From Escherichia coli (lineage in GTDB: Bacteria > Pseudomonadota > Gammaproteobacteria > Enterobacterales > Enterobacteriaceae): a DNA stretch of 64,000 bases. The notes below the pieces were generated by a model. That model had not been told where the DNA came from. It searched no databases and saw only the letters and a program-made list of their open reading frames with translations. Below, in pieces: positions 44,136 through 55,617 of this stretch (its first letter is position 1; the number at the start of each line of letters is the position of its first letter). The translations under genes and the position numbers were made by a program. Where the stretch lies: NCBI RefSeq assembly GCF_051903065.1, contig NZ_CP178438.1; one strand, written 5' to 3'.

Positions 44136-44498
44136 GGGGCTGATTCTGGATTCGACGGGATTTGCGAAACCCAAGGTGCATGCCGAGGGGCGGTTGGCCT
44201 CGTAAAAAGCCGCAAAAAATAGTCGCAAACGACGAAAACTACGCTTTAGCAGCTTAATAACCTGCTTAGAGCCCTCTCTCCCTAGCCTCCGCTCTTAGGA
44301 CGGGGATCAAGAGAGGTCAAACCCAAAAGAGATCGCGTGGAAGCCCTGCCTGGGGTTGAAGCGTTAAAACTTAATCAGGCTAGTTTGTTAGTGGCGTGTC
44401 CGTCCGCAGCTGGCAAGCGAATGTAAAGACTGACTAAGCATGTAGTACCGAGGATGTAGGAATTTCGGACGCGGGTTCAACTCCCGCCAGCTCCACCA
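44136..44498 (+). ncRNA. ssrA: tmRNA (transfer-messenger RNA)
   Basis: 363 nt from GGGGCTGATTCTGGATTCGACGGG to ...GGTTCAACTCCCGCCAGCTCCACCA; tag-ORF region present. Confidence 0.97.
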
Positions 44499-44508
44499 AA
44501 TAAATCAA

Positions 44509-44540
44509 GGGGTTACGTGAAAGCGTAGCCCCTTTTTCTT
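44509..44540 (+). terminator. intrinsic terminator downstream of ssrA
   Basis: Hairpin GGGGTTACG...CGTAGCCCC (one G:U) followed by TTTTTCTTT. Confidence 0.7.
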
Positions 44541-44621
44541 TGGTAGTGGCGGCAAAATGGCGACAGACTTTTGCGTCCATCTTGCCTGTCGCCATCTTGA
44601 AATCATGCAAAGAGGTTTCAC

Positions 44622-45104
44622 ATGGAAGAACTTCACTTTGTTTACATCAATGCAAATGGTCGTATCGGTGTTCACTCAATACAGAGCATCAGTTATAGCG
44701 AAAATCATATACAGGGCATTTGTAAGAACACCGATCGAATAAAAACCTTCCGAAAAGACCGCATTCTTAAACAGTACGATTCACCAGAACAAGCCATTCA
44801 GGAATGCGCGTCATTCCTCCCCGAAAACTACTCACATCTCACTAAGCAGTCTGGTCCGAAAAAAAATACATTCGATGTGTGCTTCACCGGATTTAAGAAA
44901 GCAGATAAAGAAAGATTGGTTGATAAGGCGAATGAACAAGGATTAACGGTAAGAACCTCTGTAACCCAAAGCCTTCAGATGCTCTGTTGCGGTTACAATG
45001 CAGGCCCATCAAAAGTATCGGCAGCCAGGATGAAAGGCACAATCATCATAGATGAGCCTGGCTTTATACATTTTCTTGAAACGGGTGAGATCCCAGATGA
45101 ATAA
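44622..45104 (+). CDS. hypothetical prophage cargo protein, WYL-like N-terminal domain plus BRCT-like C-terminal domain
   Basis: 160-aa ORF with AGAGG 10 nt upstream of ATG; N-terminal ...DRIKTFRKDRI resembles the WYL-domain RxFRxDRI strand; C-terminal FDVCFTGF...GLTV...GPSKVSAARMKGTIIIDEPGF resembles the LigA-type BRCT fold pattern. Confidence 0.6.
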   Translation: MEELHFVYINANGRIGVHSIQSISYSENHIQGICKNTDRIKTFRKDRILKQYDSPEQAIQECASFLPENYSHLTKQSGPKKNTFDVCFTGFKKADKERLVDKANEQGLTVRTSVTQSLQMLCCGYNAGPSKVSAARMKGTIIIDEPGFIHFLETGEIPDE

Positions 45105-45107
45105 AAA

Positions 45108-45125
45108 CCTGCCGTAGCAGGTTCT
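45108..45125. terminator. bidirectional terminator between the cargo gene and ogr
   Basis: Hairpin AACCTGC-CGTA-GCAGGTT flanked by A/T runs between convergent stops. Confidence 0.6.
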
Positions 45126-45130
45126 CTTTC

Positions 45131-45349
45131 TCAAAAATTCATATGCCCCTGACCACCTGGCAATGGATGTGGAGGGGCTGTAGCAATCAATGCAGGTGTC
45201 ACAATAAACCGGACCACTGTTTCATGGGTAACAAAAGTGCTCCCGCAGTTAATATTTTGGCACTGGCAGTAACGCTCTTTGGTGCTTTCTGTTACTTGAA
45301 AACTGCTCCTTGTGTGCGCCGCATGACCACACTTCGGACAATTCATCAT
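45131..45349 (-). CDS. ogr: Ogr-type zinc-finger late-gene activator
   Basis: From ATG at 45349 (or 45346): MMNCPKCGHAAHTRSS...KERYCQCQNINCGSTF...PHPLPGGQ matches the P2 Ogr CxxC-N22-CxxxxC pattern; ORF-track GTG extension rejected. Confidence 0.85.
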   Translation of the reverse strand: MMNCPKCGHAAHTRSSFQVTESTKERYCQCQNINCGSTFVTHETVVRFIVTPALIATAPPHPLPGGQGHMNF

Positions 45350-45417
45350 ATCCAGATCCCTACCTTTGCTATCAGAATCATTGTAATGATACACAAAATA
45401 TCAATATTGAGAACACT

Positions 45418-52331: not shown

Positions 52332-52349
52332 TGTGTCGTTATTCACACA
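52332..52349. promoter_or_regulatory. Ogr-box-type dyad TGT-N12-ACA upstream of FI (late promoter candidate)
   Basis: TGTGTGAATAACGACACA on the minus strand, centred about 85 bp upstream of the FI start. Confidence 0.55.
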
Positions 52350-52397: not shown

Positions 52398-52964
52398 TCA
52401 GGGCGATTCATTGCTCTCATTCGCCGGAAATTTTCTATAAATGGTAGAAACGCCCACATCAAAAATCAGTGCAATACGCTGTCTTGATTCTCCGGCCTCG
52501 AGTAAACGTCCAATCTGTGCCCACTGTTCGGTGGTCAACTTAGGACGGCGTCCACCTACTCTGCCTTTGGCACGAGCTGCAGCCAGCCCTGCTCTGGTAC
52601 GTTCAACTATCAGTTCACGTTCCATTTCAGCCAGAGCCCCCATGACGTGAAAAAAGAAACGGCCCATTGGGGTACTGGTATCAATACTGTCAGTCAGGCT
52701 TCGGAAATTCACACCACGCTGGCGCAACTCTTCTATCAGCGTAACAAGATGCCGCATACTGCGCCCCAGTCTATCCAGCTTCCAGACAACCAGCGTGTCT
52801 CCTGCCGATAGTGTCCTGAGCAGTTTTTTAAGCCCCGGTCTGTCGGACTTAGTGCCACTGATTTTATCCTCAAAAATCCGCTCACATCCCGCGCAGTTCA
52901 GTGCATTACGTTGCAAATCGGTGTTCTGGTCATTTGTTGACACGCGTACATAGCCAATAAGCAT
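52398..52964 (-). CDS. serine DNA invertase (Hin/Gin/Pin family)
   Basis: 188 aa from ATG at 52964: MLIGYVRVSTNDQNTDLQ... with catalytic Ser region and C-terminal HTH (GVSTIYRKF); ORF-track upstream extension rejected. Confidence 0.9.
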   Translation of the reverse strand: MLIGYVRVSTNDQNTDLQRNALNCAGCERIFEDKISGTKSDRPGLKKLLRTLSAGDTLVVWKLDRLGRSMRHLVTLIEELRQRGVNFRSLTDSIDTSTPMGRFFFHVMGALAEMERELIVERTRAGLAAARAKGRVGGRRPKLTTEQWAQIGRLLEAGESRQRIALIFDVGVSTIYRKFPANESNESP

Positions 52965-53019
52965 GATCAATCCCCTGAATAAAAACCGGGGATGATGCCA
53001 GTTAGCCATTATCTCTGCA

Positions 53020-53045
53020 TTTTCTTAAACGTTGGTTTGGGAGAA
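53020..53045. repeat. hix/gix-like 26-bp inversion site (left)
   Basis: TTTTCTTAAACG-TT-GGTTTGGGAGAA; bottom strand reads TTCTCCCAAACC-AA-CGTTTAAGAAAA; shares 14 bp with the right site in inverted orientation. Confidence 0.75.
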
Positions 53046-53468
53046 GGTTCGGCATTACCCGTTGGTGTGCCTGTTCCGTGGCCTTCTGCAATACCGCCTA
53101 CTGGCTGGCTGAAATGTAACGGTGCGGCTTTTTCTGCCGTTGAATATCCTAAACTGGCGAGGGTTTACCCGACAAATAAATTACCTGATTTACGCGGTGA
53201 GTTTATTCGTGGCTGGGATGATGGGCGTGGAGTGGATAGTGGGCGCGCGTTATTATCAACTCAAACAGATGAATTTAAATCACATAGTCATTATTTCGAA
53301 AGAACATGGGCACAAACTGGATTTGATACAACAGGTGGATATTATCTTTTAGCCGCTGATGTTTCTGGCTCAGTAAATCAACAGAGATCCGATAGCACTA
53401 ACTCGGTGGGGGGGAGAGAATCTCGCCCTCGTAATATTGCATTTAACTATATTGTGAGAGCTGTGTAA
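53033..53468 (+). CDS. alternative tail-fibre C-terminal segment, promoterless in this orientation
   Basis: Frame continuous through the left site; encodes GLGEGSALPVGVPVPWP...LPDLRG...SHSHYF...NIAFNYIVRAV, the P2 gpH-type C-terminal pattern. Confidence 0.75.
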
Positions 53469-54073
53469 TGGATAATGCTGTATTAAATAGCGAACATATT
53501 GCTACGAAGGCTGGAAATGTTACTGTTTATAACTTTGACGGTGAAACGCGAGAGTATATTTCCCCATCTATTGAATATATTGCCGTTGGTGTCGGTATTC
53601 CGGCATATTCATGTTTAGATGCTCCTGCCACACGTAAAGATGGTTATGCTATTTGCCGTTCTGCAGGCTTAAACTCATGGGAATATATACCAGACCATCG
53701 CAGTGAAATTGTCTATAGCACTGAAACAGGAGAATCAAAAGAAATCACAGCTCTGGGGGATTACCCTGAAAATACAACCATTATCGCCCCATTAACGCCA
53801 TACGATAAATGGGATGGTGAGAAATGGGTGACGGATACCGAGGCACAGCGTAGCGCCGCAGTAGACGCGGCAGAAGCACAGCGCCAGTCGCTGATTGATG
53901 CTGCTATGGCTTCCATTAGCCTGCTTCAACTGAAATTACAGGCCGGACGGAAGCTGACGCAAGCAGAAACAACCCGACTAAACGCCGTGCTGGATTACAT
54001 TGACGCGGTGATGGCAACGGATACCAGCAACGCGCCGGGGGTTATCTGGCCAGTTCCACCTGAGATGGTTTAA
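53468..54073 (+). CDS. tail-fibre assembly chaperone (Tfa/gpG-like) for the alternative fibre segment
   Basis: 201 aa, start overlaps upstream stop (TAATG); C-terminal pattern ...TDTSNAPGVIWPVPPEMV typical of Tfa proteins. Confidence 0.8.
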   Translation: MDNAVLNSEHIATKAGNVTVYNFDGETREYISPSIEYIAVGVGIPAYSCLDAPATRKDGYAICRSAGLNSWEYIPDHRSEIVYSTETGESKEITALGDYPENTTIIAPLTPYDKWDGEKWVTDTEAQRSAAVDAAEAQRQSLIDAAMASISLLQLKLQAGRKLTQAETTRLNAVLDYIDAVMATDTSNAPGVIWPVPPEMV

Positions 54074-54225
54074 TCTCAATCAGAATGGGTTCGCCCTTCT
54101 CGTTAACAGATATTTCCATTCCTTCAGGGATTTCAGATGCAGTAAAAAACCAGTTATCTTCTGGTAATTCAACAGCCCCGGTCACGTCATGAAGACCGGG
54201 GATTACTTCAGTCAAAGTAACAGGA
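54042..54225 (-). CDS. short ORF downstream of H (possible truncated or non-canonical Tfa); uncertain
   Basis: Only about 61 codons are open after the H stop in this frame and no ATG with a clear RBS is present; the track's 95-aa ORF overlaps H. Confidence 0.25.
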
Positions 54226-55617
54226 TTAAACAGGCGCACAATAAACTCTCCAAGAAAAAGCACTTGTTGATGGTCTTCCGTCGTACATCTGGCAGCGGAC
54301 ATAAAAACCGGTATTAGTGACCTGGTCATCCACGATCATTGAAACGTGAACGTTATTAGATGTGCTCCCGTAATCCGTTCTTATTCTTTCCGCTATGCTG
54401 ATAAAACGTGAAAGCTTAGGTAGCGCAATTGGATAAACGACTTTAGCCAGTCCATTATCATTAGAACCACCCGTTCCAAAGACTTCTATTGCACCATCTG
54501 ACCAGCGTATCCATGCACCATTGGCATTAGCTCCTCGTTGAATGACATATCTGGCTTCTCCCAAACCAAGGTATGCGAGAAGACCAGCTACATCCTTTCC
54601 ACTCAAATTGGTAAGCGTATTGTCCAGCGGTTGTTTACCTGCCAGCGCATTAAGCATTGTCGTGGCAAAGTTCGGATCATTCCCCAGTGCCGCCGCCAGT
54701 TCGTTCAGTGTATCCAGTGCCGCAGGTGCAGAACCCACCATTGCTGCAATCGCTGATTTCACAAAAGCCGTGGTGGCAATCTGTGTATTGTTGACCGACT
54801 GTGCCGCAGTAGGTGCGGTTGGCGTTCCGGTGAGTGCCGGACTCGACAGCGGCGCTTTCAGTGCCAGTGCATTGTTAATGGTGGTACTGAATTTCGGATC
54901 ATTGTTAATGGCTGCGGCTATTTCTTTCAGCGTGTCCAGCGTGGCTGGCGCACCATTAATAAGAGCCGTCAGAGCCGCCTGAACAAACGCGGTGGTCGCA
55001 ATCTGCGTGGTGTTATTCCCTGCTGCTGGCGTTGGCGCTTTGGGTGTCCCGGTAAACGTCGGACTTTCTTTGGGTGCATACTGTGAATGCGGGTCCGGTG
55101 CGGCAAGATGTTTTGCCATCTGATCATCCGCGTACACCTTCAGCTCCAGTGCCTTGTCATCCACATACTTGCGGGTTGCCAGCACTACAGCAGGGTCGAT
55201 TTTCAGGGTGATATTGTCCGTGCTGCTGGTAATCAGCACCATGCGCACGGTCTGAGTGCGCCCGCTACCTTCAGCCAGTTGCGGCTTATAGCTTTCCGGG
55301 CAGTTGCCCACGGCAATCAATGCCTCGGACTCATCAAACAGGCCCACTTCACGAATCCACCAACCGCCCTCGTTTTCAGGGATCACCTGTTCGGCAATAA
55401 TCTGGCTGCTGTTCTGCGGGTCGATATAGAGCATATTCAGCGCAGCCCGGCGTTTCTCATTTACCAGTGCAGTCTGCTTTGAGTCTGGCGTTGGCAATAC
55501 TCCGCCGCCATCGCCGACCGCCATATGGGTAATTTTTAGCGGCACACCGAGCGCGGCGGCGCTGGCAAGTTTCGCCGCGCCAATATCCGTCAGCAGGGTA
55601 TAAAATTTTGTGCTCAT
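54226..55617 (-). CDS. H: tail fibre protein (P2 gpH-like), currently expressed variant
   Basis: 463 aa; conserved N-terminal part, two about 70-aa Ala/Thr-rich repeats, junction ...AYLGLGEA at the right inversion site, then a distinct C-terminal domain ending YCAPV. Confidence 0.88.
   Translation of the reverse strand: MSTKFYTLLTDIGAAKLASAAALGVPLKITHMAVGDGGGVLPTPDSKQTALVNEKRRAALNMLYIDPQNSSQIIAEQVIPENEGGWWIREVGLFDESEALIAVGNCPESYKPQLAEGSGRTQTVRMVLITSSTDNITLKIDPAVVLATRKYVDDKALELKVYADDQMAKHLAAPDPHSQYAPKESPTFTGTPKAPTPAAGNNTTQIATTAFVQAALTALINGAPATLDTLKEIAAAINNDPKFSTTINNALALKAPLSSPALTGTPTAPTAAQSVNNTQIATTAFVKSAIAAMVGSAPAALDTLNELAAALGNDPNFATTMLNALAGKQPLDNTLTNLSGKDVAGLLAYLGLGEARYVIQRGANANGAWIRWSDGAIEVFGTGGSNDNGLAKVVYPIALPKLSRFISIAERIRTDYGSTSNNVHVSMIVDDQVTNTGFYVRCQMYDGRPSTSAFSWRVYCAPV
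54546..54571. repeat. hix/gix-like 26-bp inversion site (right), inside H
   Basis: TTCTCCCAAACC-AA-GGTATGCGAGAA; 12-bp imperfect inverted half-sites around a central AA, close to hixL as recalled. Confidence 0.75.

What the first reader, a model, noticed from the sequence alone, without database searches (positions are those of the whole stretch)
52398..54571. Invertible tail-fibre switch: serine invertase with two hix/gix-like sites flanking about 1.5 kb
A Hin/Gin/Pin-family invertase gene lies next to a 26-bp site (53020-53045). A second site inside H (54546-54571) shares the same 14 bp (TTCTCCCAAACCAA) in inverted orientation with the same central dinucleotide, as required for inversion. 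Inversion would replace the last ~110 codons of H with the currently silent P2-H-like C-terminal segment and bring its Tfa chaperone into the late operon, switching host range. The phage population is predicted to be a mixture of two receptor specificities.
Basis: partly seen in the sequence, partly recalled or inferred. Interest (0 to 1): 0.68.

Follow-up and report, generated by a model that had tools for sequence, protein, structure and literature searches.

The report
Invertible tail-fibre switch in P2-like prophage
A P2-like prophage of E. coli carries a DNA-flipping enzyme and two matching sites that swap the tip of its tail fibre, as in phages Mu and P1; the feature is real and almost certainly works, but it is ordinary.

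Summary
An intact Gin/Cin/Fin-type serine invertase gene (52398-52964, minus strand) lies 55 nt from a 26-bp crossover site (53020-53045). The second site lies inside tail-fibre gene H at 54556-54581, not 54546-54571. The two sites are inverted, match at 21 of 26 positions, and share a 16-nt exact arm and the same central AA/TT. A consensus search finds no other such site in the 64 kb, and none in 100 shuffles. Flipping 53032-54569 in silico replaces the last 114 codons of H in frame with a silent 145-codon tail-collar tip. It also places that tip's Caudo_TAP chaperone gene behind H. About 93% identical prophages occur in both orientations in complete E. coli genomes (54 and 85). Two pairs of same-clone genomes differ only by a perfect inversion bounded by these arms. 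An E. coli E2348/69 locus shown experimentally to invert has the identical 15-nt arms. Synonymous sites in the invertase gene's 5' end are conserved where P1's Fis-dependent enhancer is annotated. This is a well-known kind of system (Mu G, P1 C, e14 P, Fels-2 Fin). Inversion in this exact genome and the change in host range are inferred, not shown.

The parts
52398..52964 (-). Serine DNA invertase gene (188 aa, start MLIGYVRVSTNDQ). It is transcribed away from the invertible segment, in the same direction as H, which is the arrangement of gin in Mu.
   Evidence: Pfam Resolvase and HTH_7; phrog_125 DNA invertase; E = 1e-92 to Mu Gin structures 3uj3 and 4m6f over residues 1-184; 86% aa identity to Fels-2 Fin, 79% to P1 Cin, 99.4% to the invertase of E. 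coli DG341-1.
52875..52946 (.). Probable recombinational (Fis-type) enhancer embedded in invertase codons 7-30. Candidate G-N13-C 15-mers lie at 52929-52943 and 52880-52894.
   Evidence: Aligns with the enhancer annotated in P1 cin at nt 19-90, 56 of 72 identical. Across 16 diverged invertase genes, synonymous-site identity peaks at codons 5-16 and 21-32. Mean for codons 7-30 is 0.65 against 0.48 elsewhere, and only 8 of 157 windows score as high. TCAACAAATGA and GGATG.GA are invariant and present in the window. Fis binding itself was not tested.
53020..53045 (.). Crossover site 1 (invertase-proximal): TTTTCTTAAACG-TT-GGTTTGGGAGAA, core at 53032-53033.
   Evidence: It matches P1 cixL at 19 of 26 positions with the same layout, and P1's annotated crossover lies between the two central T's.
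53032..54569 (.). Invertible segment, 1538 bp from core to core.
   Evidence: In-silico inversion keeps both fusions in frame. The homologous segment is a perfect reverse complement between same-clone E. coli genomes.
53034..53468 (+). Silent alternative C-terminal tip of H (145 codons including the junction codon). It has a conserved collar part, a hypervariable middle and a conserved end, RPRNIAFNYIVRA.
   Evidence: Pfam Collar 3e-14; phrog_523 tail collar fibre 4e-70; alignment with E. coli alleles shows the hypervariable middle.
53468..54073 (+). Silent tail-fibre assembly chaperone (Tfa, 201 aa) that belongs to the silent tip.
   Evidence: Pfam Caudo_TAP 2e-30; phrog_105 tail fiber assembly 2.5e-92.
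54042..54239 (-). 65-aa ORF downstream of the expressed tip (GTG start, GGAG ribosome-binding site). It overlaps the end of H by 14 nt and the 3' end of the convergent Tfa gene by 32 nt. Function unknown; possibly a truncated accessory gene.
   Evidence: Matches only positions 1-66 of the 145-position phrog_5400, a family of unknown function. No Pfam match. PGAP calls the same 65-aa ORF in E. coli homologues. The homologue in Cronobacter phage JK004 is 128 aa.
54226..54569 (-). Currently expressed variable C-terminal tip of H (residues 350-463).
   Evidence: The only Pfam match is a weak Gp53-like_C hit (E = 0.11).
54556..54581 (.). Crossover site 2, inside H, encoding LGLGE: TTCTCCCAAACC-AA-GGTATGCGAGAA, core at 54568-54569.
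   Evidence: It matches P1 cixR at 21 of 26 positions. Both of the window's sites are identical to those of E. coli strains 64 and 61, which differ by the inversion.
54570..55617 (-). Constant N-terminal part of tail-fibre gene H (349 codons plus 1 nt).
   Evidence: Pfam Phage_tail_fib 8e-64 at residues 1-150; phrog_327 and phrog_7032 tail fibre.

Best explanation
This is a working two-state invertible tail-fibre switch of the Mu G / P1 C / e14 P / Fels-2 Fin type. It sits in a P2-like (Peduoviridae) prophage inserted next to ssrA in E. coli.

Inferred mechanism, from the family. The invertase binds as dimers to the two 26-bp sites. With Fis bound to an enhancer inside the 5' end of the invertase gene, it forms an invertasome on supercoiled DNA. 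It cuts both sites at the central AA/TT, rotates the half-sites by 180 degrees and religates, so that 53032-54569 is inverted.

Shown by the sequence. Site 2 lies inside H. Each orientation therefore fuses the constant 349 N-terminal codons of H in frame to one of two unrelated receptor-binding tips, and puts that tip's downstream gene into the late operon. In the orientation seen here, the expressed tip is a 114-residue, weakly gp53-like tip followed by a 65-aa ORF. After inversion it is a 145-residue tail-collar tip followed by a Caudo_TAP chaperone.

Inferred by analogy with Mu and P1. Lysogen populations should hold both orientations, and induced phage should have two adsorption specificities.
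For: - Invertase intact. It has Resolvase and HTH_7 domains, gives E = 1e-92 to Mu Gin structures with Ser9 and the DRLGR motif conserved, and is 99.4% identical to the invertase of a clone that has flipped.
- Sites. They are the best inverted repeat in the region and the only consensus matches in 64 kb, with none in shuffles. Their 12-2-12 layout and central dinucleotide match P1's annotated cixL and cixR and the Mu gix sites.
- In-frame fusion in both orientations, with domain content that fits a fibre tip plus chaperone.
- Both orientations in about 93% identical E. coli prophages: 54 complete genomes in the window's orientation and 85 flipped.
- Two independent same-clone pairs differ in 5.5-6.5 kb only by a perfect inversion whose ends fall in the shared arm: DG341-1 versus DG343-1, and strain 64 versus strain 61.
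- Metagenome contigs that carry both flanks show both arrangements.
- The E. coli E2348/69 P2-type locus shown by sequencing and PCR to phase-vary (PMC4272514, Table S1) has the identical 15-nt arms and an invertase 80% identical to this one.
- Synonymous-site conservation marks an embedded DNA element where P1's enhancer is annotated.
Against: - There is no read-level or experimental evidence for this genome. The only near-identical copy of this exact cassette pair (metagenome contig L016) has the same orientation as the window.
- The simple scan found no sigma-70-like promoter for the invertase.
- Fis binding is inferred only from conservation.
- The gene behind the currently expressed tip is not a recognisable chaperone and may be truncated, so one of the two states could give a poorer fibre.
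- Receptor specificities are unknown.
Confidence: 0.9

Rival explanations
1. The switch is a frozen relic in this genome. The module descends from an invertible switch but no longer flips here, because the invertase is silent or weakly expressed or there is a subtle defect in a site or the enhancer. The fibre is then fixed with the gp53-like tip.
For: Only one orientation is seen for this exact cassette pair, in the window and in L016. No promoter-like site was found upstream of the invertase, and a terminator-like hairpin lies between site 1 and the ATG.
Against: The invertase has no frameshift or catalytic change and differs at 1 of its first 180 residues from the invertase of a clone that flipped. 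Both sites are identical to those of the strain 64/61 pair, which did flip. The invariant enhancer positions are present. By established knowledge of Gin, Cin, Hin and Pin, invertases of co-resident prophages can complement in trans.
Confidence: 0.07
2. The two orientations among relatives arise from RecA-dependent homologous recombination between the short inverted repeats. The neighbouring recombinase gene would be incidental.
For: An inverted repeat is present, and comparing genomes cannot by itself identify the enzyme responsible.
Against: The exact arms are only 15-16 nt, far below efficient RecA substrates (established knowledge). The arms coincide with a 26-bp site that has the layout of the P1 and Mu crossover sites. 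In metagenomes, sequences diverge immediately after the central dinucleotide. The frequency needed for sister isolates to differ fits a dedicated invertase. The adjacent gene is 76-86% identical to proven invertases.
Confidence: 0.01
3. Besides or instead of switching phage host range, the switch serves the lysogen. A free or fused fibre tip made from one orientation blocks adsorption of other phages, as reported for PinQ and StfE2 of e14.
For: PMC12529663 reports that inversion of the e14 P segment creates StfE2, which blocks T2 adsorption. The e14 P segment has the same GGTTTGGGAGAA arm. In the window's orientation the silent tip has its own in-frame ATG at 52992, giving a 158-aa ORF, and PGAP calls the equivalent ORF in E. 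coli.
Against: The prophage appears complete within the window, with capsid-to-tail late genes about 96.5% identical to isolated phages, so the phage-side function is sufficient. There is no evidence that the free ORF is expressed and no promoter was found.
Confidence: 0.05

Closest known systems
Fels-2 prophage Fin invertase with its H/G and inverted H'/G' cassette (Salmonella LT2), and the P2-like prophage inversions of E. coli E2348/69 (Goldberg et al. 2014, PMC4272514)
   Same: Same phage family and the same gene order: I, H, chaperone, inverted chaperone', inverted H' tip, invertase, FI. The invertase is 86% identical to Fin. The E2348/69 locus has the identical 15-nt arms and also pairs a gp53-like tip with a collar tip. 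That locus was shown experimentally to hold both orientations.
   Different: The hypervariable receptor-binding parts differ. The expressed tip here is followed by a 65-aa ORF unrelated to the 146-aa Tfa of E2348/69. The E2348/69 locus is a truncated remnant lacking the H constant part, whereas this one is complete.
Phage Mu G segment with Gin
   Same: The order is constant fibre part, invertible segment with two convergent tip-plus-chaperone sets, then the invertase transcribed away from the segment. The invertase gives E = 1e-92 to Gin structures and is 76% identical over the first 180 residues. The sites are 26 bp and one lies inside the fibre gene.
   Different: The Mu G segment is about 3 kb against 1.5 kb here. 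The gix core is TC/GA, not TT/AA. The fibre gene is P2 H-type, not Mu S. The two tips here are unrelated in fold.
Phage P1 C segment with Cin
   Same: The sites are most alike: cixL 19 of 26 and cixR 21 of 26, with the same TT/AA core. P1's annotated enhancer in cin nt 19-90 aligns with 56 of 72 identical positions.
   Different: The 3' end of cin abuts cixL, whereas here the 5' end of the invertase gene faces site 1. The C segment is 4.2 kb.
e14 P segment with Pin (E. coli K-12)
   Same: The inner arm is identical: AAACCTTGGTTTGGGAGAAGG in e14. Inversion likewise swaps the C-terminus of a tail-fibre gene.
   Different: e14 is a defective lambdoid element, and its fibre gene is stfE/ycfK, not P2 H.
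Salmonella Hin with the H segment
   Same: The invertase family is the same. The solved Hin DNA-binding domain 1hcr matches residues 141-183 of this invertase. From established knowledge, hix sites are 26 bp and a Fis enhancer lies within hin.
   Different: Hin flips a promoter, and hin lies inside the segment. Here a coding C-terminus is swapped and the invertase gene lies outside the segment.
Multiple-inversion systems (p15B Min; the three-site P2-like shufflon in E2348/69)
   Same: Same kind of enzyme and sites, and the same purpose of varying the fibre tip.
   Different: Those systems have three or more sites and more than two tips. Here only two sites exist.

Membership tests
Enhancer-dependent serine DNA invertases (Hin/Gin/Cin/Pin/Fin) | Small (about 190 aa) serine recombinase with an N-terminal catalytic domain carrying the nucleophilic Ser near residue 9-10 and a C-terminal helix-turn-helix | tested here: met
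   Resolvase at residues 3-135 and HTH_7 at 138-181. VRVSTNDQ and KLDRLGRS are conserved against Gin and gamma-delta resolvase.
Enhancer-dependent serine DNA invertases (Hin/Gin/Cin/Pin/Fin) | Close sequence relationship to proven invertases | tested here: met
   E = 1e-92 to Gin structures. Identity is 86% to Fin, 79% to Cin and 80% to the E2348/69 P2 invertase.
Enhancer-dependent serine DNA invertases (Hin/Gin/Cin/Pin/Fin) | Two 26-bp imperfect-dyad sites (12-2-12) in inverted orientation with identical central dinucleotides | tested here: met
   Sites at 53020-53045 and 54556-54581 match at 21 of 26 positions with core TT/AA. They are the only consensus matches in 64 kb, with none in shuffles. 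The layout equals P1 cixL/cixR and Mu gix.
Enhancer-dependent serine DNA invertases (Hin/Gin/Cin/Pin/Fin) | Cis-acting recombinational enhancer in the 5' part of the invertase gene | tested here: met
   The stretch aligned with P1's annotated enhancer is 56 of 72 identical. Synonymous-site conservation shows two peaks about 50 nt apart at codons 5-16 and 21-32, and the invariant motifs are present in the window. This shows that an embedded DNA element exists at the right place, not that it has enhancer activity.
Enhancer-dependent serine DNA invertases (Hin/Gin/Cin/Pin/Fin) | Dependence on Fis and on negative supercoiling | not testable with these tools
   Needs in-vitro inversion assays or a fis mutant. 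A simple G-N13-C scan is too unspecific to count.
Invertible tail-fibre segments (Mu G, P1 C, e14 P, Fels-2) | One crossover site inside the fibre gene, so that each orientation gives an in-frame fusion of a constant N-terminus to a different C-terminus | tested here: met
   H is 463 aa as found and 494 aa after in-silico inversion, both open to a stop. PGAP annotates both forms in E. coli sister genomes.
Invertible tail-fibre segments (Mu G, P1 C, e14 P, Fels-2) | Each tip is accompanied by its own assembly chaperone, with the two sets convergent | tested here: inconclusive
   The silent set has a clear Caudo_TAP chaperone. The expressed set has only a 65-aa ORF with no Pfam match, matching the N-terminal half of phrog_5400, a family of unknown function.
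Invertible tail-fibre segments (Mu G, P1 C, e14 P, Fels-2) | Both orientations actually occur | tested here: met
   Met for homologues: 54 against 85 E. coli genomes, two same-clone pairs with perfect inversions, metagenome contigs in both states, and the experimental E2348/69 locus with identical arms. It could not be tested for this exact genome, because no reads are available.
Invertible tail-fibre segments (Mu G, P1 C, e14 P, Fels-2) | The two orientations confer different host range | not testable with these tools
   Inferred from unrelated tips (Collar against weak gp53-like) and a hypervariable middle. Adsorption assays are needed.
P2-like phages (Peduoviridae) | P2 late-gene order and high identity to isolated P2-like phages | tested here: met
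   The gene order is D, U, T, E, FII, FI, switch, H, I, J, W, V and then the lysis and capsid genes. The region is 96.5% identical over 89-96% of 19.5 kb to Escherichia phages 500465-1 and Cartapus. The prophage sits next to ssrA.

The most novel reading that the evidence does not exclude
The switch may also act for the lysogen. In the orientation seen here, the 'silent' collar tip has its own in-frame ATG (52992), and with its chaperone it could be made as a free receptor-binding fragment. That fragment could block receptors against other phages, as reported for the inversion-generated StfE2 of e14. Separately, the same inner arm is identical in e14, a Mu-like prophage and P2-like prophages. 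In metagenomes it is joined to at least 8 kinds of outer half-site. The crossover site could therefore serve as a shared splice point for invertase-mediated exchange of fibre tips between co-resident prophages.
Probability: 0.07. Interest if true: 0.5.

Novelty: already known. Interest (0 to 1): 0.15.

Why it matters
It explains why prophages of this type have two fibre tips, and why genome assemblies of the same clone differ or break at this locus. It also warns annotators that the 'phage tail protein' fragment beside the recombinase is the alternative end of H, not a pseudogene. For phage therapy or typing, lysates induced from such lysogens should contain two adsorption types. None of this is new in principle: Mu, P1, e14, Fels-2 and the P2-like prophages of E. 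coli E2348/69 established it.

Tried and rejected
- A third site, which would make a multi-inversion shufflon as in E2348/69 or p15B. Neither the full consensus nor a core pattern finds anything beyond the two sites.
- RecA-type inversion. The exact arms are only 15-16 nt and coincide with a cix-like site.
- The 65-aa ORF as a shortened version of the E2348/69 Tfa, and the expressed tip as a homologue of the E2348/69 gp53-like tip. BLASTP shows no significant similarity for either.
- NCBIfam gave no names for any fibre part.
- A simple Fis-consensus scan (G-N13-C) was too unspecific, and my first script read the window wrongly (redone). I replaced it with the synonymous-site test.
- The sigma-70 scan found no invertase promoter.
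- The Kutsukake 2006 paper on Fin is not in the library, so what I say about Fin activity rests on my own knowledge and on its citation in PMC4272514.
- Host identity. RecN is identical to E. coli RecN, so the Klebsiella phage hits reflect shared P2-like backbones, not the host.
Full report
**Context.** The window is E. coli chromosome. Its RecN protein is identical to that of E. coli ABW_A19, and the neighbouring genes (nadK, recN, bamE, smpB, ssrA) are in the same order. Directly after the tmRNA gene (44136-44498) begins a P2-like prophage whose late genes run on the minus strand: D, U, T, E, FII, FI, then the finding, then H, I, J, W, V, and the lysis and capsid genes. This 19.5-kb stretch is about 96.5% identical over 89-96% of its length to isolated or induced P2-like phages such as Escherichia phages 500465-1 and Cartapus. 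Most of the shortfall in coverage falls in the tail-fibre tips: those phages cover only 56% of the 3.4-kb switch region.

**Checking the observation.** The ORF at 52398..53009 (minus strand) is a serine recombinase. Its likely start is the ATG at 52964, giving 188 aa that begin MLIGYVRVSTNDQ.
- It carries Pfam Resolvase (4e-53) and HTH_7 (3e-15) and matches phrog_125 'DNA invertase' at 7e-101.
- It aligns end to end with the solved Mu Gin structures (E = 1e-92), with the catalytic serine and the DRLGR motif in place.
- It is 86% identical to Fels-2 Fin and 79% to P1 Cin.

The shared 14-mer TTCTCCCAAACCAA occurs exactly twice, at 53032-53045 (minus) and 54556-54569 (plus). The pair is the best inverted repeat in the region (27 nt). 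It matches at 21 of 26 positions with the same central AA/TT. The 14-mer alone is not statistically remarkable when 2 mismatches are allowed. A 26-bp hix/gix/cix-type consensus with up to 3 mismatches, however, hits only these two sites in 64 kb and nothing in 100 shuffles. That consensus was written from memory. I therefore also compared the sites with annotated ones. P1's record marks cixL, cixR and the crossover points. The window's sites have the same 12-2-12 layout and the same TT/AA core, and match cixL at 19 of 26 and cixR at 21 of 26 positions. Mu's gix sites have the same layout.

**What inversion would do.** Site 2 lies inside H and encodes LGLGE. Inverting 53032-54569 in silico keeps the reading frame. 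H changes from 463 aa to 494 aa, and its last 114 residues are replaced by 145 residues encoded at 53034-53468.
- The constant part has the Phage_tail_fib N-terminal domain.
- The silent tip has a Collar domain. It is followed by a 201-aa Caudo_TAP tail-fibre assembly protein.
- The silent tip has a conserved start, a conserved end (RPRNIAFNYIVRA) and a middle that differs in every strain compared. This pattern is expected of a receptor-binding part.
- The tip expressed now resembles Gp53-like_C only weakly (E = 0.11). It is followed by a 65-aa ORF (54042-54239, GTG start after GGAG) with no Pfam match, which covers only the first 66 of 145 positions of phrog_5400.

The order is therefore: H constant part, segment with two convergent sets, then the invertase transcribed away from the segment. 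Mu and Fels-2 have the same order.

**Does it flip?** The window is a single sequence, so this question can only be answered through relatives.
- In 5,426 complete E. coli genomes, 54 hold the locus (at least 80% of 3.4 kb in one piece, 91-94% identity) in the window's orientation. With an in-silico flipped query, 85 hold it flipped.
- The lists contain same-clone pairs. DG341-1 and DG343-1 have chromosomes of identical length. Over 6.5 kb they differ only by a perfect reverse complement of 1,583 nt, and the breakpoints can be placed anywhere within the 16-nt shared arm.
- Strains 64 and 61 show the same thing, and both of their sites are identical to the window's.
- The window's invertase differs from that of DG341-1 at 1 of its first 180 residues.
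- An exact-match metagenome scan used the 27-mer made of the inner arm plus the start of the collar tip, and found 69 contigs. Immediately after the central dinucleotide, 23 continue with an invertase-proximal half-site and 45 continue with a fibre-constant half-site of at least 8 sequence types.
- Among contigs long enough to carry both flanks, some have the window's arrangement (L016, L038, L047, L048) and some the flipped one (L026, L044, L057). L016 is essentially identical to the window's segment and has the same orientation, so for this exact cassette pair only one state has been seen.
- Goldberg et al. (PMC4272514) showed by sequencing and PCR that P2-like prophage loci of E. coli E2348/69 hold both orientations within single colonies. 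The simple two-state locus at 2977580-2979467 has the identical 15-nt arms TTGGTTTGGGAGAAG, an invertase 80% identical to this one, and likewise pairs a collar tip with a gp53-like tip. The e14 P segment and a Mu-like prophage in that study share the same arm.

**Enhancer.** Invertases of this family need a Fis-bound enhancer, which P1's record annotates at cin nt 19-90. The aligned stretch in the window (52875-52946) is 56 of 72 identical, but it is also coding sequence. To separate DNA-level from protein-level constraint, I took 16 invertase genes less than 95% identical to each other: the window, Mu, P1, Fels-2, E2348/69 and metagenome loci. For each codon I measured how often sequence pairs with the same amino acid also use the same codon. 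This synonymous identity averages 0.65 over codons 7-30 against 0.48 elsewhere. Only 8 of 157 windows of 24 codons score as high, and the best of them starts at codon 3. There are two peaks, at codons 5-16 and 21-32, with a dip between them. TCAACAAATGA (gene nt 25-35) and GGATG.GA (nt 75-82) are invariant in all 16 genes, the window included. This is the pattern expected of two protein-binding sites about 50 nt apart. Fis binding itself was not tested.

**Rivals.**
- A frozen relic cannot be excluded without reads. Nothing in the invertase, the sites or the enhancer positions differs from copies that have flipped, and invertases of this family complement each other in trans (established knowledge).
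- RecA-mediated inversion is implausible for 16-nt arms that coincide with a cix-like site.
- A host-side role is not excluded but has no support here. The model is the report that e14 P-segment inversion creates StfE2, which blocks T2 adsorption (PMC12529663). The silent tip does have its own in-frame ATG at 52992, but no promoter was found.
- A multi-site shufflon is excluded, because there is no third site.

**Comparison and verdict.** The element meets every sequence-level criterion of the Gin/Cin/Pin/Fin invertible tail-fibre systems. Its nearest described relatives are Fels-2 and the E2348/69 P2-like loci. It differs only in the particular tips it carries and in the odd 65-aa ORF behind the expressed tip. 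The host-range change and the mixed population remain inferences by analogy. The kind of system is long known and this family of prophages has been shown to flip, so interest is low.

Noticed in passing
window 54042-54239 (-): The 65-aa ORF behind the expressed H tip overlaps H by 14 nt and the convergent Tfa gene by 32 nt. It matches only the N-terminal 66 of 145 positions of phrog_5400 (unknown function). Homologues are 87 aa in phage S164 and 128 aa in Cronobacter phage JK004, so it may be a truncated accessory gene.
   Followed up: partly
window 52332-52349: A TGT-N12-ACA dyad lies between the invertase stop and the FI start, about 85 nt upstream of the FI ATG. It looks like a P2-type Ogr-dependent late promoter (consensus recalled from memory). 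If so, the invertase sits at the very end of the V-to-H operon, just before the FI operon.
   Followed up: no
window 52984-53003 (-): A terminator-like hairpin followed by a T-run lies between crossover site 1 and the invertase ATG. It might end the late fibre transcript or occlude the invertase ribosome-binding site. No sigma-70-like promoter for the invertase was found.
   Followed up: no
E. coli NCTC8623, NZ_LR134234.1 13373-16875 and 4934118-4937620: The same record holds the homologous locus twice, about 22.6 kb apart across the record ends, once in each orientation (H42, H99). This may be an untrimmed circular overlap assembled from a mixed population.
   Followed up: no
loci L015-L083 (metagenome contigs): The identical 27-nt inner arm plus collar-tip start is joined to at least 8 different fibre-constant half-sites (for example GGTTTTCGAGAGCC and GGTAATCAAGAACT) and to several invertase-proximal half-sites. 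The crossover site thus marks a module boundary shared by different phage backbones.
   Followed up: partly
window 44136-44498 and 44500-45400: The prophage abuts the 3' end of ssrA (tmRNA, tag ANDENYALAA), the attachment site used by Fels-2-type phages. In E. coli ABW_A19 a different element, with an integrase and P4-like genes, occupies the same site.
   Followed up: no
L084 (E. coli E2348/69, 2977243-2980112): The E2348/69 locus shown experimentally to invert is a remnant. The constant part of H is gone and a truncated integrase gene abuts the segment, yet it still flips (93% forward). The repeat printed in that paper's Table S1 (TTGTTTGGGAGAAG) lacks one G compared with the genome sequence (TTGGTTTGGGAGAAG).
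   Followed up: partly
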